Of a stretch of 64,000 bases of DNA, positions 26,317 through 42,681 are shown piece by piece; position 1 is the stretch's first letter, and every line of letters starts with the position of its first letter. The DNA comes from Candidatus Woesebacteria bacterium GW2011_GWB1_39_12 (GTDB lineage Bacteria > Patescibacteriota > Microgenomatia > UBA8517). The notes beneath the pieces were generated by a model. That model saw only the letters and a list, made by a program, of their open reading frames with translations, was not told where the DNA came from and did not search any database. The position numbers and the translations under genes were made by a program. The stretch spans positions 77,848 through 141,847 of the forward strand of contig LBWB01000009.1 of assembly GCA_000993405.1 (NCBI GenBank). The letters are read 5' to 3'.

Positions 26317-27528
26317 TTAGACCTGACTTACGACTGTTGGAGGGTCACCGGGGTTGCTTCTTTCTTCTTTCTTCTTTTTTAACTTCAGAAATAAAATTAA
26401 GATTAGCACTAAGATAACTACAGCCCCAAAAGCCAGACCACCGTAAAGTATCCAGTTTTGGATATTTGCAGTACTTTCAGAAAATTGTTCTTCGAAAGTT
26501 TGCAGAGTGTCGCTTTCTACAACATTAATTTTGGTTATTTTGGTCTTTCCTTTGTACTTGACAATTAGGCCGTGCTCCCCTGGCGCCACGTTTTCAAAAG
26601 TAGCTTCACCGTTTTCGTCTGTGACGCTTTCTTTGAGCTCAGAATATAAAGAAATACTAGCCCCTTCAACGGGAGATCCATTAATGTCTAATATCTTTAA
26701 CTTTATCGAAAAACCGGGTGTCAAAAAGGTCGTTGCATCACCCACCGCCTCGTTTTCTTTTGAATCGATAGATTTAACTCTTAAGTAGTAAGTTGTGCCA
26801 GGAATAAGAGTTCCTTCCGCCAAGATAACAACGTGGTCCTTTGTAAGTTCTTCTGAAAGAAAATTGAACTCGTAATTACCTGTTACCCCGTATTCGACAA
26901 TAGAACTTGCAGCAAGATTTGTATTCCATGTAACTTTAGCAGAAGTCTTAGTAATTTCTGTAACCTGGACATTACTAATAGTTAATGCCGCCACTCCCGT
27001 TGAAGTCTGGGTAGTTTGAGAACCGGAGGATGACTGCTCGCTACCTGAACCTGAAAGTGAAAGGTTGGCGGTTGAGCCTCCTGTGAAAATATTGGAATTG
27101 TCGGCATCTTTTAAAATTGCCGAATCGCCTGCGAAACTCAATGTCGCGGAGCCGGAGTCAGCTAAGACAATAAAATTTACAGAAGCTATGAATTTGCTGC
27201 CCGAAAATCCGGGTGTAGGCGTCCCTCCGCCGATTCTTACAAAACCTCCCCCACCCCCCTTTTCAGCAATTATTGTCAAAACCGAGCCGCCGGTAGATAC
27301 GCTTGAAAACTGAAGCTTGTCCGCAGGATAGATAATGTTAGCCTGAACCGCATTTACGTTTTCTCCTCCTGTCGCGACACTTACATTCATCTTTAAGGTA
27401 GAGCCTTTCGAATAGGTACCAGAAGTAGGACTAAGGCTGAATGTAGCCGCAAAGACAGACGAGGGAACGGCCAAAAACAAGACAAAAAAGCTAAAAAAGA
27501 CAAAGAGTTGGGCAGTTATTTTTTTCAT
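26317..27528 (-). CDS. cell-surface protein: signal peptide, cohesin-like domain, Ig/FN3-like repeats, C-terminal TM anchor
   Basis: 403 aa; N-terminal signal; …NAVQANIIYPADKLQFSSV… matches the cohesin consensus (GIxxxDFxxxYDPxxL); C-terminal hydrophobic helix then a KKKK tail. Confidence 0.5.
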   Translation of the reverse strand: MKKITAQLFVFFSFFVLFLAVPSSVFAATFSLSPTSGTYSKGSTLKMNVSVATGGENVNAVQANIIYPADKLQFSSVSTGGSVLTIIAEKGGGGGFVRIGGGTPTPGFSGSKFIASVNFIVLADSGSATLSFAGDSAILKDADNSNIFTGGSTANLSLSGSGSEQSSSGSQTTQTSTGVAALTISNVQVTEITKTSAKVTWNTNLAASSIVEYGVTGNYEFNFLSEELTKDHVVILAEGTLIPGTTYYLRVKSIDSKENEAVGDATTFLTPGFSIKLKILDINGSPVEGASISLYSELKESVTDENGEATFENVAPGEHGLIVKYKGKTKITKINVVESDTLQTFEEQFSESTANIQNWILYGGLAFGAVVILVLILILFLKLKKKKEERSNPGDPPTVVSQV

Positions 27529-28613
27529 TATTTATTATAGTTTGAGAGAATAATGCTTAGATCCAGTATAGTTACTCTTCCGTCGCCATTCAAATCTGCA
27601 CCACCCTGGGAACCAGTTTTGCCGAATTTTGAGAGAACTGTGGATAGGTCAATAATCGTAACTCTACCGTCTTTGTTAACATCTCCTTTTTTATTCAAAG
27701 TCGAGGTTGATGAACCTGAACTACCCGAAGAGGCCGATGAACCTCCACCACTGCTACTTCCTCCGTCACCCCCAGAGGATCCTGAACTTCCTGTTGAAGT
27801 TTGTGTAGTAGTCGTTGGCTGTACGGTTATCGCAGTTGCCGTTGGATTATTGGGAGAAAAAGTAACTGTTGGGTAAGGGGTTACTGTGGGTGTGACAGGA
27901 ACACTCGTTGCGGTCGGTTGGGGTGTTGGTGTATTAGTAGGAGCGGGAGTAGAGGTTGGAGTACTTGTAGGTTCTCCTCCAAATGTTCCACCTCCCGGTA
28001 GGGTCGGCGCCACGGGGGTAGCTGTAGGTGCTTCGGTCGGAATCTCTGTGGGCACAGGAGTCAAAGTAGCCGTGGGTTCGGGAGTTGGAGTTGGTGAAAT
28101 ATAATTGAGAACTAAATTAGCAGGATCAATGTTGCCGCCCAAAGAAGCAGCAGTACTATCGACTATTTGAATATCTGTATTGTCGATGAGGAGGGCCGTA
28201 GCATCATTTTCTGTACCAGAAATAGAAGTCAAAGAAAACTCGCTTACAACTGTATTAAGGCTACTTATCTGAATCTCGTCCAAAAGCTGGAGTTTGGTTG
28301 GATCAAAATTAAAAATTAGTCTAACAAAGGATATTTCAATTTCATTAGAATTTATCATTAGTCTAAAGTGAGCATCTGGGGGCAAGTTTTGTTCGCTTGG
28401 ACCAAAGAAAATGTCGACGGTCGGAGCATCGGCTTGTGTCCTTATGTCGGCGGGACGATTAACAAGGTAAATTATTAACGGGATACTTATAATTAAAGTA
28501 GCGGCGATAATAAATTGGGGAATTATTCCTTTGGGTAAATAGATCTTGAATTTCCAATAAATATCTTTGATGCGTTTTATGAATTTGTTAAAAGGCCTTT
28601 CCAATAATTTCAT
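27528..28613 (-). CDS. membrane-anchored adaptor protein: N-terminal TM, cohesin-like domain, Pro/Thr- and Gly/Ser-rich linker, C-terminal dockerin
   Basis: 361 aa; …FVRLIFNFDPTKLQLLDEIQISS… is cohesin-like. The C-terminus DVNKDGRVTIIDLSTVLSKFGK…DLNGDGRVTILDLSIILSNY is a classic duplicated type-I dockerin calcium-binding repeat. Confidence 0.6.
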   Translation of the reverse strand: MKLLERPFNKFIKRIKDIYWKFKIYLPKGIIPQFIIAATLIISIPLIIYLVNRPADIRTQADAPTVDIFFGPSEQNLPPDAHFRLMINSNEIEISFVRLIFNFDPTKLQLLDEIQISSLNTVVSEFSLTSISGTENDATALLIDNTDIQIVDSTAASLGGNIDPANLVLNYISPTPTPEPTATLTPVPTEIPTEAPTATPVAPTLPGGGTFGGEPTSTPTSTPAPTNTPTPQPTATSVPVTPTVTPYPTVTFSPNNPTATAITVQPTTTTQTSTGSSGSSGGDGGSSSGGGSSASSGSSGSSTSTLNKKGDVNKDGRVTIIDLSTVLSKFGKTGSQGGADLNGDGRVTILDLSIILSNYNK

Positions 28614-28706
28614 AATATTATACGAACTACAATTTAGAGTAAACTATCTCTGGTAATTATTCAACCCCTCACTCACTCCAATCGTTCGGGATGAGCCATA
28701 AAAAAT

Positions 28707-30026
28707 TCATACATAATTGTTTAACCAAAGAACATAATCAATACCGTCAACCATCCCGTCTGAATTAAAATCTCCATCGAGATATCCTCCATTTGTTTCC
28801 TGATTGTAATGATTTAGCCAAATTACATAATCTATTCCGTCAACTCTCCTATCCCCGTTCGCATCTCCGGGCAATGGCGGTTGGGTTGGAGAAGAAGTGG
28901 GCATTTGGGTTGGAATATCAGTTACACTAGCTCCAGGATTTATCGAGGGTGTTGGAGTGGAAGTCTGTGATGGTACTGGGCTCGGATTTACTCCCCCCGG
29001 ATTCCAGCCGGCAAGTTGTGCCATCAGAACCCAAAAGGCTTTTGCGATACGAATCCGAATCGGCCCCATGGTTAGATGACCATTCGTGGTCTCGACAGTA
29101 TAATGCTGACATATCGCTGGATAGTTAATACCGTCATTGGCTAAATTTTCACACACCCCGGGAGATTGACAATATTGGACACCGTCACGATCATCATAGC
29201 AGGGAGACCCATCGGGCAAGTGGGATTCAATATCGGCAAAATCCAGGAAGACCCTATACTTTCCCAAACTATCACGTTGTTGTATATATTGACGCATTTG
29301 GTTGTTGAAATCGGTAGCCACACTATTGCCAATACTTCGAGCCAAACTTGAAGTCATAAAGATAAAATATTTATTGGGGAATCTTGCCAACCGCGTTTCC
29401 AGATCATAAACATCGTTTTTATCCCCGGCATTGTTCCAAAAAAAGCCACCCGGTTGTTCAGCGATCGAGTCAAAATCAAGCACGTTTAAATAGCTGAATT
29501 GGAAGGTGTAAACCGAAAAGTTATTAATACTCCGTTGACCTTGGACTTGATTGTTATCCAAAAGAGCCATGTAGTCGGCAGTCATTGTATACCAAGTTTC
29601 GGCAAACGGTTCATGAATCCAGTTCGTCCGGTTATAACCTCCTGGTCTATACCAGTTAATGGTGTCTGCTGGAAGATTGTAAGTTGGGTCGGCGTGATCC
29701 AATTTTATACAGTCAAGCAGACAATTAGGCCTATTGTCCCAACAAGCTTCATCCGATTCCCATACTAAACAGCTGATCGCTTCATCAGTGTTAACACCAA
29801 CCGAGCGGTTGCCAAAGATCATAGGGATGGCCGCGGCCCGCTGGATATATAAGTCTGGAATTTGCTCAAACAGCGACAGGCTGGTGCGGTTAACGATGAT
29901 CGGGGCCTGTTGCAAACGAGTATTTAAATTAGGGTCAATCTGAGCACTAACTATCCCTACCCCCATAATATTTATGGAAAAATATACTGCTAAAAAAATC
30001 AATGAGTGTGTTAATTTTTTCTTCAC
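28707..30026 (-). CDS. secreted protein of unknown catalytic class with C-terminal dockerin module
   Basis: 439 aa; signal peptide. The C-terminus GDANGDRRVDGIDYVIWLNHY…GDFNSDGMVDGIDYVLWLNNY is a duplicated dockerin-type repeat. Confidence 0.6.
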   Translation of the reverse strand: MKKKLTHSLIFLAVYFSINIMGVGIVSAQIDPNLNTRLQQAPIIVNRTSLSLFEQIPDLYIQRAAAIPMIFGNRSVGVNTDEAISCLVWESDEACWDNRPNCLLDCIKLDHADPTYNLPADTINWYRPGGYNRTNWIHEPFAETWYTMTADYMALLDNNQVQGQRSINNFSVYTFQFSYLNVLDFDSIAEQPGGFFWNNAGDKNDVYDLETRLARFPNKYFIFMTSSLARSIGNSVATDFNNQMRQYIQQRDSLGKYRVFLDFADIESHLPDGSPCYDDRDGVQYCQSPGVCENLANDGINYPAICQHYTVETTNGHLTMGPIRIRIAKAFWVLMAQLAGWNPGGVNPSPVPSQTSTPTPSINPGASVTDIPTQMPTSSPTQPPLPGDANGDRRVDGIDYVIWLNHYNQETNGGYLDGDFNSDGMVDGIDYVLWLNNYV

Positions 30027-30072
30027 TGTCTATACATTATAATGGTTCAGTCCTTCGGCTTCACTCAGGATT

Positions 30073-32754
30073 TCACAACTGTGTTCCATAGTTGTTCAAC
30101 CATATTACATAGTCTACGCCATCAACTCGTCCATCAGAGTTAAAGTCTGCGTCAGATGACCCATTTGAGGTAGTTACACCATAATGATTGAGCCAGATAA
30201 CATAATCGATTCCATCAACACGGCGGTCGTTATTAGCATCACCCAGGATGGGTACTAGGGTTGGTATTGGTGTTGAGCTAGACTGATTATTAAATGCTAT
30301 CTGGTAACTTCCGCTTGATATCCGTATTCTAACCCAGTCAGTTCCGCTGGAAAGAGGGGTCTGAGCTTGACCATTCAAATAGATTGTTATCAATCCCGGT
30401 CGATAAAAAGTAATATCGCTTCCTTGAGAAATAACATTTCCTCCCTCATCACTCATATACAAACTAACCGAGTTCGTGGCTTCAAAACCTCTTTGAGGAG
30501 TGGCGGAATCGCGAAACAAACTTCCCTGGCGGACAAAGTAAGCGCTAGTTTGAGAATTCTGGGTTCTGTACCAAACCGCTTTCCCTCGAAAAGTCACTAA
30601 GTCATGCCGGATATCCGAAGTTGGAGCAGAAGATTCCAGGGCTGTGTCAAAAATACTTGCTGGATGTTGTACGGATGCTCCTGTGTAATTGCTCCCGCTC
30701 AGGCGGGAAAAACCGGCTGCGGCATGAGTGCTATCGTAAGGAAAAACAACAGTTACAATATTCTTCCGGCTACTGCTAAGCGGATAGGTAGAAAAAATGT
30801 ACTTGCCCACATAAGGAGCGTGGTCATCATAGTATTCCCAATGACAAAGTGCTCCGTCAAGAAGATCCACTCTTTGAGGCGGTGTGGCCAAAAATACGCT
30901 TATGCCAGCGCTTTGGTTGGTGAAAGCCACCGAACAAGAAAAAGGGTCGCCTGTTTCGGGATCATAGCAAGTCCGAGGAGTTGCGGGAATTGGAGCCCGG
31001 TATTCCTGATTTGAACTGACGGCAGCAGTCAAATCTGAATTTGGGTGTAAAGCAATATGGGCAGTACTTGTCCCGGCATTACCGGTTATTTCATCAAACA
31101 GTATAAAATAGCCGTTACTTCCAATTTGCGGGTGGACAAAAATAAAATTACGCTGATGCTTACCATTGGGTAAAGCCAGCCCGGAATCCCCGGATGCATA
31201 ATCAATTCCATTTCCGGTAAACCCTTCGCTAATTCCAGCACCAAACTTATACCGATGGTCATTTGCTTCACTTGGATCGTTCGGGTTACCAATATTGTAA
31301 TTTATCAGTGCCGTATTATTTCCTACCGCCCGGTGCGTCATATAGTTAGTGGAAAACCCTAAACACTCATCCGCCCCTTGGGCTCCCCCAGCCCCTTTGA
31401 AACCTACATTTAGAAGAAGCGGCTCTCCGTAAGCAGATACATGTATCGAGTTGGTATCATTGTGGGCATGGAAATAAACCATATTTGGGTCATTAAAATA
31501 CTCTTCGGTTGCCTTTACGTTCCACAAAGCGCCGTACAATGAATTTTTAGTCAAATTGTGGTCCATAAAAAAAGCTCCTCCGTCATTAAATATTCTGCTG
31601 ATTGGGGCAGTCGGAGCCGGCAAAGGATATGATAATAAAACATATTGGAGCAGTCGCCCCGGAAGAAATATCGGGTCTTGAGAAGGTTTGTCTGCAAACT
31701 GCGTCCGCCGCCACATGGCATATTGTCCGGCCTCTTGACTAAACTTGGATGCCTGTCCCGTATGAGCAGTATGTATTGTATAGTAGCCGAAATTCTCCGA
31801 CCAAACCGGGTAAAAATCCGAGCTGTCACCAAAGGGGGCTTGAATCCCTGCCGGGGTGGAAGCATAGCCAAAAAGCCACTCATACAGGTTTTGATATTTG
31901 GGATCTTGATAAAAACTGTAGTTGTCTGCTACCCCGTTCCCGTCAAAATCGATATTTCTAATGATATTGGTGTGTTCCAAAATATCTATAATATGAGATC
32001 TTTCCCCCCGCTGGTGTGCAAAAGCTACGGTACCGTAAAAAGGTCCCTCGTAATAAACCCCGTCCGGAGTAAAAAGCATATCCATCTGGGGCTTATAACC
32101 CACTATGGGCCGATAATCATCTCTCTGACCCCCTTTCACTAACGCATTAATATAAGGATCACTTGCGTCTTTACCTTTGTAAATGTTCCAAACCAACTGT
32201 GTGCCTTCAAATGCGGGTGGGTTGGCTGGAGGGGCATTGTAGTAGTGGTTATATTCCTGAAGTAACCAATTTTCTGCGCTGGTTTTCTCTGCTAAGGTTA
32301 AATCGTTGTAAATAATATCCATAGCCAGGATAGAATCTAAAAAAGCGGCGGCCGGAGCCATAAAGAAGGCTGCGGAGTAATTTGGTGTGCGCTGAACTAC
32401 CAAAATATCAGCCCACATCGGCATCACATTTAGAATTTTCTGTTTATACTGCATACGGTTAGCATCATCTAGTATAAAAGCCAAGGAACAGGCACTCATA
32501 ATATTTTGCATTCGGTACCCTTTATCGTAATCCTGAAGGTCGCCTGGGCTATAGGTTAAATTTTGACAATCGAAAATGGCATCGGCTTTCATACTTGACC
32601 AAGGCTCTTGACTGGCCCGGGCTCTGAGAGCAGGTAATTGGTCTGCACTGACAAGCATAAAAGGATGTGCCGGAGTCTGGGCAGAAATTAGATTAGTAAA
32701 TGCAGTAATCTGAAATAAAACCAAAACACCAACCAATATGACAAAGGTATGCAT
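30073..32754 (-). CDS. secreted putative polysaccharide lyase/hydrolase (heparinase II/III-like guess) with C-terminal dockerin
   Basis: 893 aa; signal peptide. The C-terminus GDANNDRRVDGIDYVIWLNHY…DFNSDGRVDGVDYVIWLNNY is dockerin-type. The catalytic family is assigned only by loose resemblance. Confidence 0.5.
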   Translation of the reverse strand: MHTFVILVGVLVLFQITAFTNLISAQTPAHPFMLVSADQLPALRARASQEPWSSMKADAIFDCQNLTYSPGDLQDYDKGYRMQNIMSACSLAFILDDANRMQYKQKILNVMPMWADILVVQRTPNYSAAFFMAPAAAFLDSILAMDIIYNDLTLAEKTSAENWLLQEYNHYYNAPPANPPAFEGTQLVWNIYKGKDASDPYINALVKGGQRDDYRPIVGYKPQMDMLFTPDGVYYEGPFYGTVAFAHQRGERSHIIDILEHTNIIRNIDFDGNGVADNYSFYQDPKYQNLYEWLFGYASTPAGIQAPFGDSSDFYPVWSENFGYYTIHTAHTGQASKFSQEAGQYAMWRRTQFADKPSQDPIFLPGRLLQYVLLSYPLPAPTAPISRIFNDGGAFFMDHNLTKNSLYGALWNVKATEEYFNDPNMVYFHAHNDTNSIHVSAYGEPLLLNVGFKGAGGAQGADECLGFSTNYMTHRAVGNNTALINYNIGNPNDPSEANDHRYKFGAGISEGFTGNGIDYASGDSGLALPNGKHQRNFIFVHPQIGSNGYFILFDEITGNAGTSTAHIALHPNSDLTAAVSSNQEYRAPIPATPRTCYDPETGDPFSCSVAFTNQSAGISVFLATPPQRVDLLDGALCHWEYYDDHAPYVGKYIFSTYPLSSSRKNIVTVVFPYDSTHAAAGFSRLSGSNYTGASVQHPASIFDTALESSAPTSDIRHDLVTFRGKAVWYRTQNSQTSAYFVRQGSLFRDSATPQRGFEATNSVSLYMSDEGGNVISQGSDITFYRPGLITIYLNGQAQTPLSSGTDWVRIRISSGSYQIAFNNQSSSTPIPTLVPILGDANNDRRVDGIDYVIWLNHYGVTTSNGSSDADFNSDGRVDGVDYVIWLNNYGTQL

Positions 32755-35709: not shown

Positions 35710-38413
35710 AATGATTTAGCCAGATAACATAGTCTATCCCGTCAACTGCCCCATCAGAGTTAAAGTCTGCGTCAGATGATCCATTTGAGGTAGTTGTATC
35801 ATAATGATTTAGCCAGATAACATAGTCTATGCCGTCAACTCTTCCATCGCCGTTTGCATCTCCCTGAACCGGCACTAAAGTTGGTGTAGGTGAAGGGAAC
35901 AAAGACGGACCAATCTGTGAATAATCTCCTACTTTAATTCCAGCATCTGCAACGCTTGACGGCAAATTATTTAAATTTATAACCAGATTCCCCTGACTGT
36001 CGGTGGTTAGCGACGAAAGGGGCGGCCTAGTTAACCCGGTGTTGGTATCAAAATACCACCACTCAACTGGTAAAATAGCATTTGCACTAAATCCGGCGAC
36101 TATAACACTTCCGGCTAGACGACTACTGTCCCAGACTTGGGGACAACCAGAAATATTCCCCGATACCGCACACCAAGTGTGACGTTTATTTTGAATCCAC
36201 AAATGGGCACGGTTTGTGGACGGATTTTTCTGCCCAACAACCCGTACATTAGCATCAGAAACAGTTGCGGCTAAGTTCTGATAACCACCAAGATTGAGGG
36301 GAATGTTTTTTACAAAATCAAAAACGTCTTTGAAATGGTGCCTGTGATCAAAATCCATTCTAATCGAGCAGGGTGGACCCCCGGGGCAGTCGTAAATATG
36401 CCAATTTTCAAACCAGTAAGACTCAATGAGCCCATTGGAATTAAGTCCTCCCCAGAGAAAGTTGTGCAACCAAACTCCATTTCTATCCGTATGAATATCA
36501 AGGTTGGGATCCAAATTATCACTGTTGACAAAACCCGTCTCCCCTCGGATTACCGGCCAGCGAGCGGAATTTTGCGGACCCCAAAGACTTGCGGCATCTA
36601 TGGTAGCTTGGGCGGCATCGTAGAAATCTTCCAAAGGAACACAGGCAGAACCGCTTCGGCGGTTATAACAATGGACATCGCCGAAATCAATTCCAGGATA
36701 ATTACTCAGGTTCCAACTCGAAGTTGTTCCATTCCAGACAGATGTGGCCGACAAATGTCTGGGTGTGAACTGATGAAAATACCGCCCCATCAAATCTGCA
36801 GCAACAGCGTGTTCGGTACCGGGCGTACCTTCATTGACAAATTCCCAGGAATGAATGGCTGTGGAATATCCCCAACGGGCTTGCAGGTATCGCCACCATT
36901 GCTTTTGCAACCAACGGCTTCGAGTCACCGAACCATCAGTCGGTCCATAAAGGTAAGCACTATTGGGGGAAGCAGTGTACAATCCGTTCCAGCCAAAACT
37001 GGCTAAAATTTCTTCCCGCCAGTCTAAAACTACCGGACGAAGATAAACACCATACTCTTCTGCCATGTTAACGACTTTATCAAAAGCAAAGGAATTGCGC
37101 TGATCAAAATAGCGGTGATGATCCATGAAAGGCTTGGGCAAAATATTGGAGCCATACTGACCATTACCCAAATCCTCTTCTATCCAAACATAACGAACTT
37201 CAGCCATACCGGCGCTGACATTTTCCAAAGCTAAAACAATAAAGTCGAGAAAACGCTGGTCGGCTTGGGTAGTAAAATTACCTTCAAGAGTCTGCCAGGC
37301 GGCAACGTTGTTGGGTTGTACTGGGGTAATCTTGGAACCACTTGCGGCAAGGTTGCAATTATCGCTGGTATTGGTAAATTTGACAACAAAACCGTAAGGT
37401 TGCCCGTTAACCGCCGGACCCTCTATACCCAAGGTTTTATAGTTCACGCGTAAACGATAACGGGTATTGGGTTTTACCGGCGGATGCGGAGAATTTAAGC
37501 CGTACATAAAACACCGGCTGGGATTAGAACTTATCTGAAAAGCAAACTCTGTTACCGGGTTGGTACCCGGATCATACATAAGCCAAGTCCAAGGCGGATC
37601 ATTCCCGTTGCTGGCAGCATCCCGCCATGGATTCCAGTGCGAACCAAAAATTGACCACTGGGAAAGCCAGACACGAATAAGCTGGATGCCGTTATCCCCC
37701 ATCGCACGAAAATGATCGATATTATCGCCCTGGCTGGTAGGACTATCAGCTTCGGGATCAATCCACTGAATGTGATTGTAATTCATGTTATAACCAAGGG
37801 CAGGGAAATATGTCCCGTCTTCAAATTCAAAGTATCGCTTATCCATTTGGGAAACTCGGATAAACCCCTTATTTTCCGAATTAACAACCTCAAAACCTTG
37901 AGAAGAAGATATTACAGTACCCGATGCATCTTGGACCTTGAGGCGGTACTGCCAAGTGCCTGCCTGATTAGGAGCATAGCGGACTTTCCAATAATAATTA
38001 GTGGTCGGGTAATACCAGTCAGTACCCCATTGGCTGGGATGGGTTTCATCTAGAAAATCTTGGTAGTAGAAAGCGGGTTGGGTGTAGGCTCTGGTCCAAT
38101 CGGATTGGCCCGGGGGAAGGAATTCTGCATCAACAGCGATACCTTGGTCAAAGGGATAATTCTCGGAACCGGGGTAAGGGCTGGTATTTGGTTCATAGGC
38201 AAAATTTAAGTTTTGGGCGACTGTATTTTGAATCTGGAAAGTAATTTCAAACTTTTCGTACTTGGGAATTTGAGAATTTGGATAAGAGCTTTTATTATCC
38301 GATATGTTGCTAATCGAAGGGCCGGTTTGGGCACTCACTGAAGGAACATAAAAGCCAAAAAAAACGACTAAAAAAGCAATGAAAAATACCCGTCTTACCA
38401 AGTTACAAAGCAT
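35702..38413 (-). CDS. secreted putative glycoside hydrolase (GH5-like / DUF5060-DUF4038-type guess) with C-terminal dockerin
   Basis: The track ORF runs to 38491, but the signal peptide starts at the internal Met (MLCNLVRRVFFIAFLVVFFGFYVPSVSAQ), so the start is probably 38413. WEFVNEGTPG resembles the GH5 NEP acid/base region. The C-terminus GDANGDGRVDGIDYVIWLNHY…DFNSDGAVDGIDYVIWLNHYD is dockerin-type. Confidence 0.55.
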   Translation of the reverse strand: MLCNLVRRVFFIAFLVVFFGFYVPSVSAQTGPSISNISDNKSSYPNSQIPKYEKFEITFQIQNTVAQNLNFAYEPNTSPYPGSENYPFDQGIAVDAEFLPPGQSDWTRAYTQPAFYYQDFLDETHPSQWGTDWYYPTTNYYWKVRYAPNQAGTWQYRLKVQDASGTVISSSQGFEVVNSENKGFIRVSQMDKRYFEFEDGTYFPALGYNMNYNHIQWIDPEADSPTSQGDNIDHFRAMGDNGIQLIRVWLSQWSIFGSHWNPWRDAASNGNDPPWTWLMYDPGTNPVTEFAFQISSNPSRCFMYGLNSPHPPVKPNTRYRLRVNYKTLGIEGPAVNGQPYGFVVKFTNTSDNCNLAASGSKITPVQPNNVAAWQTLEGNFTTQADQRFLDFIVLALENVSAGMAEVRYVWIEEDLGNGQYGSNILPKPFMDHHRYFDQRNSFAFDKVVNMAEEYGVYLRPVVLDWREEILASFGWNGLYTASPNSAYLYGPTDGSVTRSRWLQKQWWRYLQARWGYSTAIHSWEFVNEGTPGTEHAVAADLMGRYFHQFTPRHLSATSVWNGTTSSWNLSNYPGIDFGDVHCYNRRSGSACVPLEDFYDAAQATIDAASLWGPQNSARWPVIRGETGFVNSDNLDPNLDIHTDRNGVWLHNFLWGGLNSNGLIESYWFENWHIYDCPGGPPCSIRMDFDHRHHFKDVFDFVKNIPLNLGGYQNLAATVSDANVRVVGQKNPSTNRAHLWIQNKRHTWCAVSGNISGCPQVWDSSRLAGSVIVAGFSANAILPVEWWYFDTNTGLTRPPLSSLTTDSQGNLVINLNNLPSSVADAGIKVGDYSQIGPSLFPSPTPTLVPVQGDANGDGRVDGIDYVIWLNHYDTTTSNGSSDADFNSDGAVDGIDYVIWLNHYD

Positions 38414-38420: not shown

Positions 38421-39182
38421 TTATATTCTTCTTTTCCTACCAATCCTACCAATAAAATAGCCCGACAGACCACCGGAGATAAGTAAACCAAAAACTACCA
38501 AAAAATATATATAACTATTACCACTCAATTTACTGTCGTTATCGTCGCTTTTAATGGTCAGGCTATCTTCCGCCCCCTTAACGATTCCTTCTTTTTTCCT
38601 AAACGGATTCAGTTTTGAAGATGTGTCTTTATCGGAAGTATTGTCCGATGTCACACTAACACCAGGCGTCAACTCTGAAGCAGGACTCTCAACTTTAACT
38701 AGCAGGCTGCCGGTTCTTATTAAGATATCGACGCCCTCAGAAACAACAACATTGCTATCAGTTGAACTCCCGGGTGAAAAGTCAAAAGAAACATTTGTCG
38801 ACTCGGTTCTTTCTCTTCCCTCAAAAGTTATTTTTGCAACAGATTTCTTCTCGGTTGTAAAAACGCTATAGTCGTTTGAAAATGCGATTTCGACCGAGCC
38901 GCTATCGTTGTCGACCGATTGTGCCGGTGAAGTCGAAAATGCTTTTAAATCCTCGATTTCTATAACTTTTACATACTTGGGGTCATACTTTATAAAAAGG
39001 TCTATTCCGATAACTTCAGCGCCACCAGGATCCAGAACTACATCGACTTTCTTCTGACTGCCTTCGGCAAGCGATATAGCATTTTCGGAAAAAGAGATCG
39101 AGGAATTTGTAGCTAAAGCCGTCCTTGAAAGGCCGAAAAGCAGTAGGAACGAAAGAAAAAAAACCTTTTTTGCATCAGTCAT
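38421..39182 (-). CDS. membrane-anchored cohesin-domain protein: signal peptide, one cohesin, C-terminal TM anchor
   Basis: 253 aa; …VDVVLDPGGAEVIGIDLFIKYDPKYVKVIEIED… matches the cohesin signature (cf. GIANCDFVFRYDPNVLEII); C-terminal TM then RIGRKRRI. Confidence 0.6.
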   Translation of the reverse strand: MTDAKKVFFLSFLLLFGLSRTALATNSSISFSENAISLAEGSQKKVDVVLDPGGAEVIGIDLFIKYDPKYVKVIEIEDLKAFSTSPAQSVDNDSGSVEIAFSNDYSVFTTEKKSVAKITFEGRERTESTNVSFDFSPGSSTDSNVVVSEGVDILIRTGSLLVKVESPASELTPGVSVTSDNTSDKDTSSKLNPFRKKEGIVKGAEDSLTIKSDDNDSKLSGNSYIYFLVVFGLLISGGLSGYFIGRIGRKRRI

Positions 39183-40683
39183 TGGTCTTGAAGAAATTTT
39201 GAATTAAGATCCAGTAATCAAAAGTGTTTACAATTCCATCTTTGTTATAGTCGGCAGATCCGCCTCCAAACCAACTACCATACATCAAAGACAAATCAAT
39301 ATTATTAACTACCCCATCGTCGTTCATGTCTCCTGCCAATAGACTTCCAAAATTCACTAAATTTTCCCCCGAGTCAACCAGTAAGGTCGCTTTCTTTCTT
39401 AAAAAACCAGTTACTTTCGCGAAGAATTCGTAAGTGTTTCCAATAAACTGTGCAGGCAATTCAATTGGAGCGCTCACGCCCTCGGTGTCCGTTGAAAAAC
39501 TATTAGAAAAGCCGTCGCTACTTTCAACAATTCCTGCTACCTGATGCCCACTCGTCCCCTCAAAGGACGTTGTCAGTTTAACCTTAAGGCTGGCCTTATC
39601 AATTATCTCTATAGAAAGCGGTTGAGGGGGAGTCAAAATATCCTGGCCGCTGGCGGCTGCAATCACATTGCTTTCGCTTTTCGAGTTGGGCGCAAACTCG
39701 AAGTCAAAATCGGTAGTTCCGACAGATTTGGCCAAAAAGTTTACGGCTGCAACCGAACCCTTCCCTACATAGCTAAACCCCTGTGACTCGATTTGAGAAA
39801 TTCTAATCAGGCCAGCGGAATTATCAAAAGAACTGATAGTGTTTCCGCTTAAAAGTTTATTATCATCAATTGAAACTACTTCCACTTTTGATGGATCAAA
39901 GTTAACCACGGCATCTATACCCACGACGGGAGTGGAAGTTGATACCTGCAAATCAGTTGAAAACTGACTACCCAAGATAGGAGGGTTAATAAGACTTAAA
40001 GAAAGTGTTGTCGGATCTGGGGATGAAGGTGTATCGGTAGGCGTGGGAGTAGGAGTATCCGTTGGCAAGGGAGAATTGGTTGGCGTGGGAGTAATTTCAG
40101 GGGTTACTTCAATGTTAGCCAATAAATCCGCATTTTCCGTCAGAAAATCTAGATTTTGGGCATCTATGCTTACAATTTGTATGTCTTGACTATCTATTGC
40201 CAATTCCGAATGGATATTTGTTTCTTCTGTCTTTAACTCCAAAGGTATTTTTGCTAATTCAAAAACTCCTGAAGGTGGACTTTGCCGTTGTTCAGCAGAA
40301 AGACCCAGAACAAGCAGTATTTGCCCGTTTGTGTTGGCTTCATTCATGCCTGTCTTTTCTATCACACTAGCCAAAAGTGGCGTAGTTTCAATTTCCTGGG
40401 AAAGACTGAAATAAGTATTGTCAAAGTAAATTTTTACTCTTATAAAGCCGATTCCTTCGCTTTTGGAATCGACCGTCAAACTGAAAGTGGTATCTGGAGG
40501 AAATACTGCAATATTGGGCTCAAAATAAATATCGACTTGATCTTGAGCCTTAACAAGATTTAGTTTAAAAACCCAAAATGAAAAAGTATAAAAAAGAACC
40601 AAAAACAAGAGAGATAAAAGTGAAAATCTAAATACAAAAGTACTTCTTTTAAGGGCCTTGAATTTTTGGAATAAATTAATCAT
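39175..40683 (-). CDS. scaffoldin-like protein: N-terminal TM anchor, two cohesin-like domains separated by a Pro/Thr linker, C-terminal dockerin
   Basis: 502 aa. Cohesin-like 1 is …EGIGFIRVKIYFDNTYFSL…. The linker is TPTPTNSPLPTDTPTPTPTDTP. Cohesin-like 2 is …PVVGIDAVVNFDPSKVEVVSID…. The dockerin is GDMNDDGVVNNIDLSLMYGSW…DYNKDGIVNTFDYWILIQNF. Confidence 0.6.
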   Translation of the reverse strand: MINLFQKFKALKRSTFVFRFSLLSLLFLVLFYTFSFWVFKLNLVKAQDQVDIYFEPNIAVFPPDTTFSLTVDSKSEGIGFIRVKIYFDNTYFSLSQEIETTPLLASVIEKTGMNEANTNGQILLVLGLSAEQRQSPPSGVFELAKIPLELKTEETNIHSELAIDSQDIQIVSIDAQNLDFLTENADLLANIEVTPEITPTPTNSPLPTDTPTPTPTDTPSSPDPTTLSLSLINPPILGSQFSTDLQVSTSTPVVGIDAVVNFDPSKVEVVSIDDNKLLSGNTISSFDNSAGLIRISQIESQGFSYVGKGSVAAVNFLAKSVGTTDFDFEFAPNSKSESNVIAAASGQDILTPPQPLSIEIIDKASLKVKLTTSFEGTSGHQVAGIVESSDGFSNSFSTDTEGVSAPIELPAQFIGNTYEFFAKVTGFLRKKATLLVDSGENLVNFGSLLAGDMNDDGVVNNIDLSLMYGSWFGGGSADYNKDGIVNTFDYWILIQNFFKTND

Positions 40684-40810: not shown

Positions 40811-41767
40811 TCATTCCCCTAAATAGGCTGAAGAAAAAACGGGTTGACCGATCTCAGATATGTAAGAGCGGTAAAGGTTTGAAGAAAAAAGTCTCCCACC
40901 TCTATACATTAAGTCGACTACGAGACCCTTCTTTGTTTTCTCACTCCACATTTGGTCGAAAATAAAATTGCCCAAAGAATAATAAACAGGTACTCCATTA
41001 ATTATTTCCGAATTTTGAACCCAATGTGGGTGGTGGCCAATGATAACATCCGCTCCCGCATCAACCATCTCCTTAGCCCATTCTCTTTGCTTCCTGGTAG
41101 GCTTATCTGTATATTCAACCCCCCAGTGAACCCCAACTATTACAACATCAGCTTTTTCATTAGCGCTTGTTATCAATTCAAGATCAGCATCATTCAGTAA
41201 ATCTACGGTAAAATCGAAGCCGAGGAAACCAAATGACATATTCCTATATTGTTTTATGACTATATCGCCAAGTCCGGTTACTAAAATACCATTTTCTTCC
41301 AAGATTTTTACGGTCTCATTTATTCCCTCTTTACCATAATTCCCAGAGTGATTGTTGGCCAGACTCGCTACATCTACTCCTGCAAAGGTGAGTCCCGCAA
41401 CCATTTTAGGATCGGCACAAAATTTAAAACCGCTATCGTTCTTTGGACAATCAGGGATTATTGGATTCTCCAGATTGATAAAAACTAAGTCTGCCTCTCT
41501 TAACTTATCGGCCACCTTTCTAAACGGATAAATCGGATCCTCCTTTTCTTCCGCCTCAATCATCACCGTTCTTCCAAGCATTACATCACCAGTTGCAATT
41601 ATTGTTATCCTTTCAGGGTCCTCGTTTTGAAGTTTCGGGGTAAAACTTATTACCTGTTTTCTACCATCCATAAAAACAACAAATACAAACACTAGAGATA
41701 AAATCGCTAAAAATAAAAAAACGAAGCCTTTTAAATATGGCTTAGAGTTTGCCAATTTAGCGGACAA
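40811..41767 (-). CDS. CapA-family (poly-gamma-glutamate/capsule synthesis) metallophosphoesterase-like protein
   Basis: 318 aa; N-terminal TM; …TGDVMLGRTV… and …IGHHPHWVQ… are typical of the CapA/PgsA family. Confidence 0.7.
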   Translation of the reverse strand: MSAKLANSKPYLKGFVFLFLAILSLVFVFVVFMDGRKQVISFTPKLQNEDPERITIIATGDVMLGRTVMIEAEEKEDPIYPFRKVADKLREADLVFINLENPIIPDCPKNDSGFKFCADPKMVAGLTFAGVDVASLANNHSGNYGKEGINETVKILEENGILVTGLGDIVIKQYRNMSFGFLGFDFTVDLLNDADLELITSANEKADVVIVGVHWGVEYTDKPTRKQREWAKEMVDAGADVIIGHHPHWVQNSEIINGVPVYYSLGNFIFDQMWSEKTKKGLVVDLMYRGGRLFSSNLYRSYISEIGQPVFSSAYLGE

Positions 41768-41862
41768 AAATAATCCCCGCGATCACAAACGCGAAAATCG
41801 CGCAGGCAATAAGGATGTATAACAAGGAATAATCCTTTTTGTTTGTTGCCATCTTTTTTTGA

Positions 41863-42681
41863 CTAGAGAGCTAAAAGCGCTGCTCCGATAATAACAAGAA
41901 TACCCAGTCCGATTCCAAAGTAAGTTGGGTATGAAACTCCCGCATCGGGTAGTCCACCCTTACCGGTTCCGGTCGGAGTTGCTGTAACACTAACCGCTCT
42001 TGTAGGCGTAACAGTTCCGGTCAGTCTCGTGGTCGGAGTCGGACTTCCTGTTACCCGAGTCGTTGGGGTCGGGGTTCCGGATATCTGCGTCGTAGCTCCG
42101 GCTACAGTATAGCTTCCTGTTGAAGTAGGTATGAGAAGAATGTCTTCGTTATTGGTCTTTCTGGTAATGATTGATTCTGCCGGGTCAAAACGTATAACTA
42201 ACGGCGAAACTGACGGTGTCCTATCGACCCTTAATGTTAAATTCGCCAAAAGTGTTGCCGTATTTGCGGTAAATCCAAAAGCACTGGTATTTGTACAGGA
42301 AATATCAACAACTACATTTCCACCCGAAAGACTGGAATTTTGTATCGGACAGGTCCAATCACCTGAAGATAAAAGAGCAGAGTTAACTTCGATTGACGAA
42401 ACGCTTACTTCGGGAGTTGTTCCCGAAAAGGGATAAGTAAGTCTTACCGCTACTCCTGATATTGCGATATTTGCCGGATTAAAATAAATGCTTGAGTTGA
42501 TCGTGTCGCCGACGTCATAATCCCCTGTCTCCGGGGAAATTGAAACCTCGGCCTGGCCGGTTGGAACAGACGCTTCCTCACGCAGCTCCTGTCGTTCTCT
42601 TAAAAGCACAAGACCTGCCACAAAACCTCCCACCGCAACTATGATTATTAGAAGTGCAACAATTATCTTTTTCGCAGGCAT
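41863..42681 (-). CDS. membrane protein with cohesin-like domain, Thr/Pro-rich linker and C-terminal LPDAG+TM sorting-signal-like tail
   Basis: 272 aa; N-terminal TM; …ISGVAVRLTYPF… beta-rich domain; …GTPTPTTRVTGSPTPTTRLTG…; the C-terminus GKGGLPDAGVSYPTYFGIGLGILVIIGAALLAL is an LPxxG-like motif followed by a hydrophobic helix. Confidence 0.45.
   Translation of the reverse strand: MPAKKIIVALLIIIVAVGGFVAGLVLLRERQELREEASVPTGQAEVSISPETGDYDVGDTINSSIYFNPANIAISGVAVRLTYPFSGTTPEVSVSSIEVNSALLSSGDWTCPIQNSSLSGGNVVVDISCTNTSAFGFTANTATLLANLTLRVDRTPSVSPLVIRFDPAESIITRKTNNEDILLIPTSTGSYTVAGATTQISGTPTPTTRVTGSPTPTTRLTGTVTPTRAVSVTATPTGTGKGGLPDAGVSYPTYFGIGLGILVIIGAALLAL

What the first reader, a model, noticed from the sequence alone, without database searches (positions are those of the whole stretch)
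26317..42681. Cellulosome-like cohesin-dockerin cell-surface assembly locus in a low-GC, apparently CPR-like genome
Four consecutive large secreted proteins end in almost identical duplicated calcium-binding dockerin-type repeats (GDANGDxRVDGIDYVIWLNHY…DFNSDGxVDGIDYVIWLNNY). Their N-terminal regions look like different catalytic or binding modules: a lyase-like toroid, a PQQ beta-propeller, a GH5-like domain and an unknown one. They are flanked by five membrane-anchored proteins at 26317, 27528, 38421, 39175 and 41863. Each of these contains one or two domains matching the cohesin signature GIxxDFxxxYDPxxLxxxxI (for example VIGIDLFIKYDPKYVKVIEIED and VVGIDAVVNFDPSKVEVVSID). This is the architecture of a scaffoldin plus dockerin-enzyme system, encoded as one co-oriented block. 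Such systems are classically described in cellulolytic Firmicutes. A complete membrane-anchored hierarchical version in this genomic context, with PQQ-propeller and lyase-like cargo rather than classical cellulases, would be novel.
Basis: partly seen in the sequence, partly recalled or inferred. Interest (0 to 1): 0.9.

Follow-up and report, generated by a model that had tools for sequence, protein, structure and literature searches.

The report
Cohesin-dockerin enzyme display in Woesebacteria
An ultra-small groundwater bacterium (Candidatus Woesebacteria, CPR) carries a real but non-cellulolytic cohesin-dockerin gene island that probably tethers polysaccharide-degrading enzymes to its cell surface; this is a little-described variant of a well-known assembly principle.

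Summary
Six proteins in the block, not four, end in dockerins that pass Pfam's threshold. All 12 calcium-loop repeats in the 64 kb window lie inside the block.

Cohesin modules:
- G, the second module of H, and (marginally) A are supported by Pfam.
- J is supported by predicted fold only.
- B carries a truncated copy.

The host is a Rifle-aquifer Candidatus Woesebacteria MAG, so the CPR guess is right.

H is a mini-scaffoldin (cohesin, cohesin, beta-sandwich, dockerin). Its gene overlaps that of G, a cohesin protein with a C-terminal membrane helix. This H-G pair recurs in seven independent loci.

Cargo with a shared dockerin class varies between loci. It includes a clan GH-A glycosidase, a heparinase II/III-like lyase, PL8 and PL9 lyases, PQQ-like propellers and an unknown domain. 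No cellulases or CBM3 are present.

A syntenic relative lacks the A-to-H block but keeps J and CapA. The block is therefore a variable insert, and J is a conserved backbone protein.

Cohesin and dockerin genes in CPR genomes have been mentioned in passing before (Kantor 2013, Bell 2022), and UniProt already labels these proteins. Which dockerin binds which cohesin is inferred, not shown.

Verdict: new variant of a known kind, moderate interest.

The parts
26103..26285 (+). tRNA-Thr(TGT) and tRNA-Tyr(GTA), immediately flanking the low-coordinate end of the variable block
   Evidence: Rfam and ARAGORN. In the syntenic relative L065 the backbone genes M50-Fmt-Def-Wzy-MreB follow CapA without the cohesin-dockerin block.
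26317..27528 (-). A, a type-I membrane protein. Layout: signal peptide, cohesin (window 27088-27420), fn3, CarboxypepD_reg-like beta-sandwich, C-terminal transmembrane helix with a Lys-rich tail.
   Evidence: Cohesin 24.4 bits against a gathering score of 24.1 on the isolated segment. hhalign against the H_N2/G profile gives 85% probability, E 5.8e-6. fn3 and CarboxypepD_reg hits. Hydrophobic segments 1-34 and 356-387.
27528..28613 (-). B. Layout: N-terminal hydrophobic anchor or signal, truncated H_N1-type cohesin-like domain (about 28104-28436), Pro/Thr/Ser-rich linker, and a dockerin of its own class (27549-27689; GDVNKDGRVTIIDLS / ADLNGDGRVTILDLS). Its stop codon overlaps A's start codon.
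   Evidence: Dockerin_1 6.6e-12. Alignment with H_N1 orthologues shows a gap of about 30 residues. The local H_N1 HMM hits B, but B was itself one of the sequences used to build that HMM.
28707..30026 (-). C, cargo. Layout: signal peptide, a roughly 300-residue secreted domain of unknown function, Pro/Thr linker, class-1 dockerin (28713-28871).
   Evidence: Dockerin_1 3e-5. No Pfam or PDB match even with a 27-sequence profile. The whole 439-aa query, dockerin included, has 89 representative clusters at E<=1e-30; its relatives carry dockerin, T9SS, SLH or CBM tails.
30073..32754 (-). D, cargo. Layout: signal peptide, divergent heparinase II/III-like (polysaccharide-lyase-like) module, class-1 dockerin (30103-30246).
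   Evidence: Hepar_II_III_C 17.1 bits, below the gathering score. 11 of 18 family members hit PF07940, best 1.8e-6. Weak hits to oligoalginate lyase and a PL35 chondroitinase.
32764..35709 (-). E, cargo. Layout: signal peptide, PQQ/BamB-type beta-propeller, a roughly 600-residue region of unknown function, class-1 dockerin (32788-32931).
   Evidence: PQQ_2 7.5e-22 and Dockerin_1 3.2e-6. PDB propeller hits. Three paralogues sit in tandem in L048.
35702..38413 (-). F, cargo (the ORF extends to 38491; the probable start is Met27 at 38413). Layout: signal peptide, DUF5060 Ig-like domain, clan GH-A-type (beta/alpha)8 glycosidase with an insertion of about 215 residues, class-1 dockerin (35723-35863). 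Putative acid/base Glu554 at 36830-36832 and nucleophile Glu651 at 36539-36541, numbered on the 929-aa ORF.
   Evidence: phmmer to PDB 9gmj, E 8.9e-18, in two stretches including WEFVNEG/WEFWNEV and GETGF/GEFGL. The motifs are conserved in the L007 and L052 orthologues. Start as called in L002.
38421..39182 (-). G, the proposed anchoring protein. Layout: signal peptide, one cohesin (38748-39065), Ser/Asp-rich stalk, C-terminal transmembrane helix with an Arg/Lys tail. Its start overlaps the end of H by 8 nt.
   Evidence: Cohesin 27.5 bits. Transmembrane helix 223-245. A G-type orthologue follows H in seven loci. G cohesins form their own clade.
39175..40683 (-). H, the mini-scaffoldin or adaptor. 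Layout: N-terminal hydrophobic segment, cohesin H_N1 (40117-40539), Pro/Thr linker, cohesin H_N2 (39601-40008), beta-sandwich spacer (39343-39594), asymmetric H-class dockerin (39196-39336).
41863..42681 (-). J, a conserved backbone protein with a cohesin-fold ectodomain (42103-42549). It has an N-terminal transmembrane helix, a Thr/Pro linker, and a conserved LPxAG motif followed by a C-terminal hydrophobic helix. It is associated with the system only by fold and proximity.
   Evidence: No Pfam or NCBIfam hit. AF2 pLDDT above 90 over residues 45-195. The top 31 Foldseek hits are all cohesins. 211 homologues at E<=1e-3; the 120 best listed are 53-99% identical to J. It occurs without cohesin-dockerin neighbours in L065 and L066.

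Best explanation
The block 26317-40683 is a variable genomic insert in a Candidatus Woesebacteria (CPR, Microgenomates) chromosome. It encodes a non-cellulolytic, cellulosome-like system for displaying enzymes on the cell surface.

Shown:
- Four secreted cargo proteins carry a shared class-1 dockerin with two nearly identical calcium-loop/helix repeats. They are F (clan GH-A-type glycosidase with DUF5060), E (PQQ-type propeller protein), D (heparinase II/III-like lyase) and C (unknown domain).
- H has two distinct cohesins, a beta-sandwich spacer and its own asymmetric dockerin.
- G has one cohesin of a third subtype and a C-terminal transmembrane helix.
- The H-G pair is conserved in other loci, while the cargo varies.

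Inferred:
- Cargo dockerins bind the cohesins of H in a calcium-dependent way.
- H's dockerin binds G's cohesin, tethering the complex to the cytoplasmic membrane through G's transmembrane helix. Classical systems use SLH domains or sortase for this step.
- B (dockerin) and A (cohesin plus transmembrane helix), whose genes also overlap, form a second tethered pair.
- The cargo types here and in sister loci (PL8, PL9, GHL10, beta-helix) point to extracellular, probably uronic-acid-containing polysaccharides as the substrate. Candidates are biofilm EPS, capsule or host surface glycans. Crystalline cellulose is unlikely.
For: - Domain identity.
- Clustering: all 12 dockerin repeats in the 64 kb window lie within the block.
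- Host: Candidatus Woesebacteria from the Rifle aquifer.
- Conservation of the core: H-like followed by G-like genes (8-nt overlap checked in the window and L007) occur in the window, L007, L049, L050/L051, L052, L053 and L054. All keep the H-class dockerin motif DLNDDGIVNNID / DYNKDGIVNS.
- Cargo: class-1 dockerin cargo follows H-G in the window, L007 and L052. L048 (Woesebacteria GWA1_37_8) has ten consecutive class-1 dockerin proteins.
- Distinct cohesin types: H_N1, H_N2 and G form three separate orthologous clades across loci, which fits three binding specificities against three dockerin classes.
- Cargo chemistry: F keeps the NE and nucleophile-Glu motifs. D's family hits Hepar_II_III_C in 11 of 18 members. 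L007 cargo includes Lyase_8 and a Pel9A-like beta-helix.
- Insert status: L065 has the same backbone (Trp-repressor, J, CapA ... M50, Fmt, Def, Wzy, MreB) with an unrelated 635-aa protein in place of the block. GC is 0.434 in the block against 0.386 elsewhere. tRNA genes sit at the edge.
Against: - No binding was tested or modelled, so the wiring (cargo to H, H to G, B to A) rests on gene order, overlap and co-conservation.
- G's cohesin is closer to H_N2 (about 26% identity) than to H_N1, so cargo could bind G directly.
- H and B may stay membrane-anchored through their N-terminal hydrophobic segments rather than being secreted adaptors.
- H has only two cohesins for four cargo proteins.
- The dockerin in the H model has low confidence (pLDDT about 50).
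- The substrate is not established. D is below Pfam's threshold, and the main domains of E and C are of unknown function.
- Some loci (L050/L051) have H-G without adjacent cargo.
Confidence: 0.7

Rival explanations
1. It is a true cellulosome that degrades plant cell-wall cellulose, as in cellulolytic Firmicutes.
For: The module types are the same (cohesin, dockerin, scaffoldin-like H). F is a clan GH-A-type barrel, the clan that includes GH5 cellulases. Earlier papers read CPR cohesin and dockerin genes this way.
Against: - No Pfam cellulase family (GH5, GH9, GH48) and no CBM3 scores on any of the ten proteins.
- F's only solved relative is an uncharacterised DUF5060 protein.
- The other cargo is lyase-like, propeller or unknown. 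Sister loci add PL8 and PL9 lyases.
- The scaffoldin has two cohesins and no carbohydrate-binding module.
Confidence: 0.07
2. The cohesin and dockerin modules serve mainly as adhesion or envelope-architecture elements of an episymbiont, for cell-cell attachment or building a surface layer. Enzyme recruitment would be secondary. J, A and G would be structural surface proteins, and the dockerins would bind host or own-envelope ligands.
For: - J, a cohesin-fold protein, is strongly conserved across Woesebacteria (53-99% identity among the 120 best-scoring hits listed). It occurs without any dockerin neighbours.
- A carries fn3 and prealbumin-like domains, typical of adhesins.
- A dockerin-domain protein is essential in a cultivated Saccharibacterium and was proposed to target host glycans (PMC10633639).
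- In L049 the H-G pair sits beside type IV secretion genes.
Against: - Four to ten adjacent dockerin proteins carry enzyme-like modules with signal peptides.
- The H-G-cargo order is conserved.
- Three cohesin clades match three dockerin classes, which fits specific pairing within the system.
Confidence: 0.15
3. The dockerin-like repeats are generic calcium-binding stabilising tails with no cohesin partner, and the co-location with cohesin-like Ig or jelly-roll domains is coincidental.
For: - Dockerin-type loops occur in many phyla without obvious scaffoldins. The genome scan returned Planctomycetota, Chloroflexota and Gammaproteobacteria.
- Several cohesin calls here are marginal or based on fold only.
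Against: - All six dockerins pass Pfam's gathering threshold.
- All dockerins and all cohesins in 64 kb fall within one 16 kb block.
- H combines both module types in one protein.
- The H-G pairing, with a lineage-conserved H-class dockerin, recurs in seven loci.
Confidence: 0.05

Closest known systems
Acetivibrio thermocellus (Clostridium thermocellum) cellulosome: CipA scaffoldin (CohI9-X-DocII) docking onto the anchoring proteins SdbA, OlpB and Orf2p
   Same: - The logic is the same: enzymes with duplicated-repeat dockerins, a scaffoldin with cohesins plus a C-terminal spacer and a dockerin of a different class, and a separate cell-bound cohesin protein.
- The class-1 dockerin has near-perfect internal symmetry, as in dual-binding-mode type I dockerins (the comparison is from own knowledge).
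   Different: - H has two cohesins rather than nine, and no CBM3.
- Anchoring is by a C-terminal transmembrane helix, not SLH domains. No SLH hit was found on any of the ten proteins.
- The cargo is not cellulases.
- The host is a CPR bacterium.
- Cohesin sequence identity to solved cohesins is only 11-21%.
Non-cellulosomal cohesin-dockerin systems, for example the Archaeoglobus fulgidus cohesin (PDB 2xdh) and the Clostridium perfringens GH84/GH33 toxin-enzyme cohesin-dockerin pairs (2vo8, 2w1n, 2o4e)
   Same: Cohesin-dockerin modules are used outside cellulose degradation to join glycan-active enzymes. These structures are among the top fold matches.
   Different: As far as I know, those systems are pairwise enzyme-enzyme links or isolated modules. 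They lack a dedicated adaptor scaffoldin plus membrane anchor and an array of 4-10 dockerin cargo genes in one locus.
Cohesin and dockerin genes previously noted in CPR genomes: the OD1 RAAC4 'cellulosome-related gene cluster' and SR1 dockerin-like protein (Kantor 2013, PMC3812714); Shapirobacterales BG1-G2 expressing cohesin and dockerin genes (Bell 2022, PMC9123182); the essential dockerin protein SEML1_0315 in a Saccharibacterium (Wang 2023, PMC10633639)
   Same: Same radiation (in Bell 2022 the same Microgenomates supergroup), same module types, and expression was shown in one case.
   Different: Those reports are one-sentence annotations read as cellulose degradation or glycan binding. 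In the passages retrieved for the terms cohesin, dockerin and cellulosome I saw no architecture, dockerin classes, conserved H-G core, transmembrane anchoring, cargo census or island context. No paper in the searched library pairs Woesebacteria with cohesin.

Membership tests
Cohesin-dockerin assembly system (general) | Dockerin: two tandem repeats of about 22 residues, each an EF-hand-like calcium loop plus a helix, scoring above the Pfam PF00404 gathering threshold | tested here: met
   B 45.9 bits, C 24.6, D 25.7, E 27.7, F 30.4 and H 24.5, against a gathering score of 22.9. The Asp/Asn ligand pattern D-x-[ND]-x-[DNS] at loop positions 1, 3 and 5 and Asp at position 12 are present in all 12 repeats; position 9 is Asp or Asn in 10 of 12 and Thr in both of B's repeats.
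Cohesin-dockerin assembly system (general) | Cohesin module recognised by Pfam PF00963 at or above the gathering score | tested here: met
   Met for G (27.5 bits), H_N2 (37.3) and marginally A (24.4, isolated segment only), against a gathering score of 24.1. Not met for H_N1, B and J.
Cohesin-dockerin assembly system (general) | Cohesin fold: nine-stranded jelly-roll beta-sandwich | tested here: met
Cohesin-dockerin assembly system (general) | Specific calcium-dependent physical binding between cohesin and dockerin | not testable with these tools
   No complex modelling or binding assay was available. The proposed pairing is inferred from gene overlap, synteny and clade structure.
Cohesin-dockerin assembly system (general) | A scaffoldin carrying two or more cohesins, plus a separate cell-surface anchor | tested here: met
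   H has two cohesins plus a dockerin. G and A have a cohesin plus a C-terminal transmembrane helix.
Cellulosome in the strict sense | Dockerin-bearing cellulases or hemicellulases (GH5, GH9, GH48 and similar) as cargo | tested here: not met
   No Pfam glycoside-hydrolase cellulase family scores on C-F. F resembles only an uncharacterised DUF5060/GH-A-type protein.
Cellulosome in the strict sense | A cellulose-binding CBM (CBM3) on the scaffoldin, and SLH or sortase anchoring | tested here: not met
   No CBM or SLH hit on A, B, G, H or J. Anchoring is by transmembrane helices. J has an LPxAG-like motif, but no NCBIfam or Pfam sorting-signal hit and no sortase was found among the 41 ORFs of the window (31 outside the block) that were scanned with Pfam.
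Heparinase II/III-like polysaccharide lyases (for D) | Match to PF07940 or an alginate/heparin lyase profile above threshold | tested here: inconclusive
   D itself scores 17.1 bits against a gathering score of 24. 11 of 18 family members match, best 1.8e-6. PDB profile hits to oligoalginate lyase 3a0o and a PL35 chondroitinase are only E about 0.1-0.7.
Clan GH-A (beta/alpha)8 retaining glycosidases (for F) | Asn-Glu acid/base motif at the end of strand 4 and a nucleophile Glu at the end of strand 7 | tested here: met
   WEFVNEG (Glu554) and RGETGF (Glu651) align with the corresponding motifs of 9gmj and are conserved in the L007 and L052 orthologues. Assigning them to strands 4 and 7 is from general knowledge of the clan. 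Activity is untested.

The most novel reading that the evidence does not exclude
Cohesin-dockerin pairing may be the general surface-display mechanism of Woesebacteria and other Microgenomates. In this reading, the lineage-wide cohesin-fold protein J and the portable H-G module act as docking sockets in the membrane of a cell that lacks classical SLH anchoring. Swappable arrays of dockerin-tagged lyases and glycosidases, on variable islands, would form a feeding organ that digests biofilm EPS or the envelope glycans of a host cell. That would link the reduced CPR metabolism directly to episymbiotic or scavenging nutrition.
Probability: 0.2. Interest if true: 0.75.

Novelty: new variant of a known kind. 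Interest (0 to 1): 0.55.

Why it matters
CPR bacteria have tiny genomes and depend on external nutrients, yet how they get those nutrients at the cell surface is largely unknown. This bacterium devotes a roughly 14 kb island to enzymes, an adaptor and a membrane anchor, and the H-G core recurs in related populations with changing lyase and glycosidase cargo.

This gives a concrete hypothesis that can be tested biochemically without cultivating the organism. The test pieces are six dockerins, five or six cohesins and four enzymes.

It extends the cohesin-dockerin principle in three ways: a membrane-helix-anchored form, a lyase-rich form, and a deeply divergent form in which two cohesin types escape the Pfam model. 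It also cautions against reading cohesin and dockerin hits in metagenome bins as evidence of cellulose degradation.

Tried and rejected
1. The genome-contig scan with the seven-sequence H alignment picked the generic calcium-loop pattern. It returned mostly unrelated dockerins from Planctomycetota, Chloroflexota, Gammaproteobacteria, Saccharibacteria and Daviesbacteria.
It was repeated with a four-sequence H alignment.
3. Sequence-profile searches against PDB sequences found nothing useful for J or for C. Only the fold search resolved J.
4. hhalign of H_N1 against the J profile gave 2.6% probability, so J is not a close relative of the island's cohesins.
5. A literature search for PDB codes 9GMJ and related entries returned only 'GPa' materials-science papers. 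A search for DUF5060 gave one irrelevant paper. The activity of F's solved relative therefore remains unknown to me.
7. ORF 49838-50671 gave a weak hit to the J HMM. On inspection this lies in the transmembrane and Pro/Thr region of a CBM96-like protein, so it is not a cohesin.
8. The promoter and terminator scans were not above shuffled expectation. Only the hairpin between J and I is noted.
9. Recent gene conversion among the four cargo dockerins is rejected: DNA identity is only 61-78%.

Full report
**What is in the sequence**

Ten genes lie head to tail on the minus strand between 26317 and 42681. I label them A to J in ascending window coordinates:
- A 26317-27528
- B 27528-28613
- C 28707-30026
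- D 30073-32754
- E 32764-35709
- F 35702-38491 (probable true start Met27 at 38413, as called in the identical contig L002)
- G 38421-39182
- H 39175-40683
- I 40811-41767
- J 41863-42681

Spacing is tight. The B/A junction overlaps by 1 nt, the H/G junction by 8 nt, and the F/E junction by 8 nt.

The flanks are ordinary housekeeping genes:
- RRF, EF-Ts, S2, FolD, SHMT and nucleotide-salvage genes
- TopA, DprA, a PBP, MreB and a Wzy-like protein
- Def, Fmt and an M50 peptidase on one side
- a Trp-repressor-like gene, NUDIX, MFS, RelA/SpoT, NusG and L1 on the other

tRNA-Thr and tRNA-Tyr sit at 26103-26285, and tRNA-Thr at 43104-43179.

**Host**

Exact-sequence look-ups place these proteins in Candidatus Woesebacteria MAGs from the Rifle aquifer (locus tags UT24_C0009G01xx and UT23_C0002G01xx). 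The same proteins occur in Rifle-series metagenome assemblies. UniProt already names G and H 'Cohesin domain-containing protein' and D 'Dockerin domain-containing protein'.

**Dockerins**

Pfam Dockerin_1 scores above its gathering threshold in six proteins, not four: B, C, D, E, F and H. A six-frame scan for the calcium-loop pattern finds 12 repeats (six pairs) in the whole 64 kb window, all inside the block.

The dockerins fall into three sequence classes:
- **Class 1 (C-F).** They are 69-82% identical to each other. The two internal repeats are almost identical (VDGIDYVIWLNHY and VDGIDYVIWLNNY).
- **B's own class.** GDVNKDGRVTIIDLS / ADLNGDGRVTILDLS, also internally symmetric.
- **H's own class.** DMNDDGVVNNIDLSLM / DYNKDGIVNTFDYWILI, asymmetric.

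The DNA of the four class-1 modules is only 61-78% identical, so they are an old family rather than a recent conversion tract.

**Cohesins**

| Module | Evidence |
|---|---|
| G | Pfam Cohesin 27.5 bits (gathering score 24.1) |
| H_N2 (second module of H) | Pfam Cohesin 37.3 bits |
| A, N-terminal segment | 24.4 bits when scanned alone; hhalign against the H_N2/G profile 85% probability, E 5.8e-6 |
| H_N1 (first module of H) | No Pfam hit itself; 3 of 7 aligned N1-type domains do hit (the window's own H_N1 is not one of them); profile hits the C. acetobutylicum cohesin 6kgc_A end to end at E 3.9e-4; hhalign against H_N2/G 96% probability, E 1.2e-9 |
| B, N-terminal domain | Aligns with H_N1 but lacks about 30 central residues, so it is a truncated and possibly non-functional copy |
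| J | No Pfam or NCBIfam hit; hhalign against H_N2/G only 42% probability; cohesin by predicted fold |

Details of the two structure models:
- **J.** The model was built from a 30-sequence alignment and has pLDDT above 90 across residues 45-195. Its 31 best Foldseek matches are all cohesins, best E 1.2e-9, TM 0.74.

The segments either score with the Cohesin HMM or adopt the fold in models.

**Topology**
- C, D, E and F have signal peptides ending in a shared ..(S/N)AQ motif.
- A and G have a signal peptide plus a C-terminal transmembrane helix followed by a basic tail (type-I anchoring).
- H and B have only an N-terminal hydrophobic segment. H's ends in ..VKAQ, like the cargo signal peptides, so H may be secreted. 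B's follows a long basic N-region and looks more like a signal anchor.
- J has helices at both ends. The C-terminal one is preceded by a conserved LPxAG motif.

**Cargo**
- **F.** It matches PDB 9gmj ('DUF5060 domain-containing protein') at E 8.9e-18 in two stretches: the N-terminal Ig-like domain and a (beta/alpha)8-type region. WEFVNEG aligns with WEFWNEV, and GETGF with GEFGL. These are the Asn-Glu acid/base and nucleophile-Glu signatures of clan GH-A (established knowledge of the clan). Both are kept in orthologues from L007 and L052. 'GH5-like' is a fair description of the fold class, but no cellulase family scores.
- **D.** It belongs to a small family of 21 proteins (Woesebacteria, other Microgenomates, a Victivallaceae MAG). 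11 of 18 aligned members hit Hepar_II_III_C (best 1.8e-6), two carry CBM96, and only three carry dockerins. D itself is below threshold. The call is 'probable polysaccharide lyase of the heparinase II/III fold class', with low to moderate confidence.
- **E.** It has a clear PQQ/BamB-type propeller followed by about 600 residues without any match.
- **C.** Its roughly 300-residue domain has no Pfam or PDB relative, even with a profile. The whole 439-aa query (dockerin included) has 89 representative clusters at E<=1e-30, and in other proteins the domain is joined to dockerin, T9SS, SLH, CBM4_9 or laminin-G modules. That is the behaviour of an extracellular glycan-active module, but its activity is unknown.

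**Related loci**

H has few relatives (8 hits), but they are informative. Using local HMMs of the three cohesin types and a dockerin motif, I find the same pair in the window, L007, L049, L050/L051, L052, L053 and L054.
- The H-like protein has H_N1 (absent from L054, where the H-like ORF runs off the contig end), H_N2 and an H-class dockerin (DLNDDGIVNNID.. / DYNKDGIVNS.D.W). The beta-sandwich spacer was checked only in the seven proteins of alignment A1.
- It is immediately followed by a G-like protein with one cohesin and a C-terminal transmembrane helix.

Cargo in the related loci:
- In L007 the order is H, G, F-like (DUF5060), a Pel9A-like beta-helix, a PD40 propeller, then a PL8 lyase. 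The three complete cargo proteins (F-like, beta-helix, PD40 propeller) end in class-1 dockerins; the PL8 gene runs off the end of the locus, so its C-terminus was not seen.
- L048 (Woesebacteria GW2011_GWA1_37_8) has ten consecutive class-1 dockerin proteins. They include a beta-helix, GHL10, a D-like protein and three E-like proteins.

A neighbour-joining tree of the cohesin domains separates H_N1, H_N2 and G into three orthologous clades across loci. Only the most divergent locus, L049, is ambiguous. The tree has no bootstrap support and should be read as a crude indication.

So there are three conserved cohesin types and three dockerin classes. The H-G core is invariant and the cargo changes.

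**The block is a variable insert**

L065 (Microgenomates GW2011_GWC1_37_8) has the same backbone order: Trp-repressor, J, CapA, then M50, L28, Fmt, Def, Wzy and MreB. Between CapA and M50 it has a single unrelated 635-aa membrane protein with no cohesin or dockerin. L066 has a J homologue in a different context, also without such neighbours.

The block A-H has GC 0.434, against 0.386 for the rest of the window. A hairpin followed by a T-run lies between J and I (41799-41772).

J has 211 homologues at E<=1e-3, and the 120 best listed are 53-99% identical to it. I therefore treat it as a backbone surface protein with a cohesin fold, not as part of the mobile unit. Whether it binds any dockerin is open.

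**Most likely mechanism**

Shown:
- the modules, their classes and their clustering
- the H-G conservation
- the variable cargo
- the membrane helices

Inferred:
- Class-1 dockerins bind H's cohesins.
- H's dockerin binds G's cohesin, so the enzymes hang from the cytoplasmic membrane through G.
- B and A form a second dockerin-cohesin pair.
- The complex degrades extracellular, probably acidic, polysaccharides.

Alternatives that I cannot exclude:
- Cargo binds G directly, since G is nearer to H_N2 than to H_N1.
- H stays anchored by its own N-terminal helix.
- The modules serve adhesion as much as catalysis.

**Comparison with what is known**

The design is that of the A. thermocellus cellulosome: enzyme dockerin to scaffoldin cohesin, then scaffoldin dockerin to anchor cohesin. 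The membership tests for a strict cellulosome fail, however:
- no cellulase families
- no CBM3
- no SLH

It belongs with non-cellulosomal cohesin-dockerin systems. From my own knowledge, Peer et al. 2009 catalogued these across Bacteria and Archaea. The A. fulgidus and C. perfringens cohesins are among the fold hits here.

Within the CPR, cohesin and dockerin genes have been mentioned before:
- an OD1 'cellulosome-related gene cluster' and an SR1 dockerin-like protein (PMC3812714)
- expressed cohesin and dockerin genes in a Shapirobacterales (Microgenomates) population, read as cellulosome formation (PMC9123182)
- an essential dockerin-domain protein in a cultivated Saccharibacterium (PMC10633639)

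No paper in the searchable library links Woesebacteria with cohesin. In the passages retrieved for the terms cohesin, dockerin and cellulosome I saw none of the following described: the architecture, the three dockerin and cohesin classes, the H-G core, the transmembrane anchoring, the lyase-rich cargo, or the island context.

**Verdict**

It is a new variant of a known kind. It is moderately interesting because it gives a cultivation-independent, biochemically testable model for how a CPR cell arms its surface. It also shows that 'cohesin plus dockerin' in metagenome bins should not be equated with cellulose degradation.

Noticed in passing
window 41863-42681 (J); alignment A2: J is a strongly conserved family with no Pfam annotation: 211 hits at E<=1e-3, and the 120 best listed are 53-99% identical to J; the named ones come from Woesebacteria, Microgenomates and unclassified Patescibacteria. 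Besides the cohesin-fold ectodomain it has two invariant cysteines (C111, C129). It also has a conserved LPxAG motif followed by a hydrophobic helix without a basic tail. That looks like an atypical sortase-like sorting signal, yet no sortase was found among the 41 ORFs of the window that were scanned with Pfam (31 of them outside the block).
   Followed up: partly
window 28707-30026 (C), residues about 40-345; alignment A5: This is a widespread uncharacterised secreted domain with no Pfam or PDB relative. The whole-protein query (dockerin included) has 89 representative clusters at E<=1e-30. Invariant residues include an S-V-G-x-N motif, R133, Y179, D262 and G316-H317. In other proteins it is fused to dockerin, T9SS Por_Secre_tail, SLH, CBM4_9 or laminin-G modules. 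It is a candidate new carbohydrate-active family.
   Followed up: partly
L003 versus window 35747-35798; L004 versus window 36903-37005: There is strain-level variation in F. One near-identical contig (L003) has an in-frame 93-nt deletion that collapses F's two dockerin repeats into one, which looks like recombination between the internal repeats. Another (L004) lacks about 91 nt, which splits F into 510-aa and 362-aa ORFs. This is either population-level decay of F or an assembly artefact.
   Followed up: partly
L065 9001-12994 versus window 26317-42681: A syntenic Microgenomates genome keeps J, CapA, M50, Fmt, Def, Wzy and MreB. In place of the 14 kb cohesin-dockerin block it has one unrelated 635-aa membrane protein. 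The block sits next to tRNA-Thr and tRNA-Tyr and has higher GC (0.434 against 0.386), suggesting an integration hotspot or a replaceable surface-protein slot.
   Followed up: yes
L049 1-12551: In the most divergent H-G locus, the pair lies directly downstream of type IV secretion genes (TrbC/T4SS pilin, TraC-like, a VirB4-like DUF87 ATPase, an M23 peptidase) and of a 733-aa protein with a class-1-like dockerin.
   Followed up: no
L009 6955-18190 (GCA_034409055.1): A distant relative of H combines Amidase_2 (peptidoglycan amidase), cohesin and dockerin in one 855-aa protein. Its neighbours are a cohesin-TPR protein, an S8 peptidase, and a 1126-aa protein with Amidase_2, CarboxypepD_reg, dockerin and a MauG-like domain. 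This looks like a cohesin-dockerin set with cell-wall-lytic cargo.
   Followed up: no
window 49838-50671 and 48382-49788: The first is a membrane-anchored protein with a Pro/Thr linker and a CBM96-like domain (Pfam 26.0 bits, equal to the gathering score). It is preceded by a 468-aa membrane protein of unknown function. Both lie outside the block. CBM96 also occurs on two members of D's lyase family.
   Followed up: partly
window 40811-41767 (I): This is a CapA/PGA_cap-family protein with an N-terminal membrane anchor. It sits between J and H and is conserved next to J in L065. A RimK-like ATP-grasp gene lies at 62252-63154. Any link to a poly-glutamate-type surface polymer is unexplored.
   Followed up: no
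window 35702-38491: The mechanical ORF for F starts at a TTG that overlaps G by 71 nt. The likely start is Met27 (38413), which gives a typical signal peptide ending in VSAQ. All four cargo proteins and H share an (S/N/K)AQ motif at the end of the N-terminal hydrophobic segment.
   Followed up: partly
L010-L047 (genome-contig scan): Dockerin-type calcium-loop modules related to H's dockerin are common in MAGs of Planctomycetota/Phycisphaerae, Chloroflexota and Gammaproteobacteria. They also occur in other CPR lineages (Saccharibacteria, Daviesbacteria).
   Followed up: no
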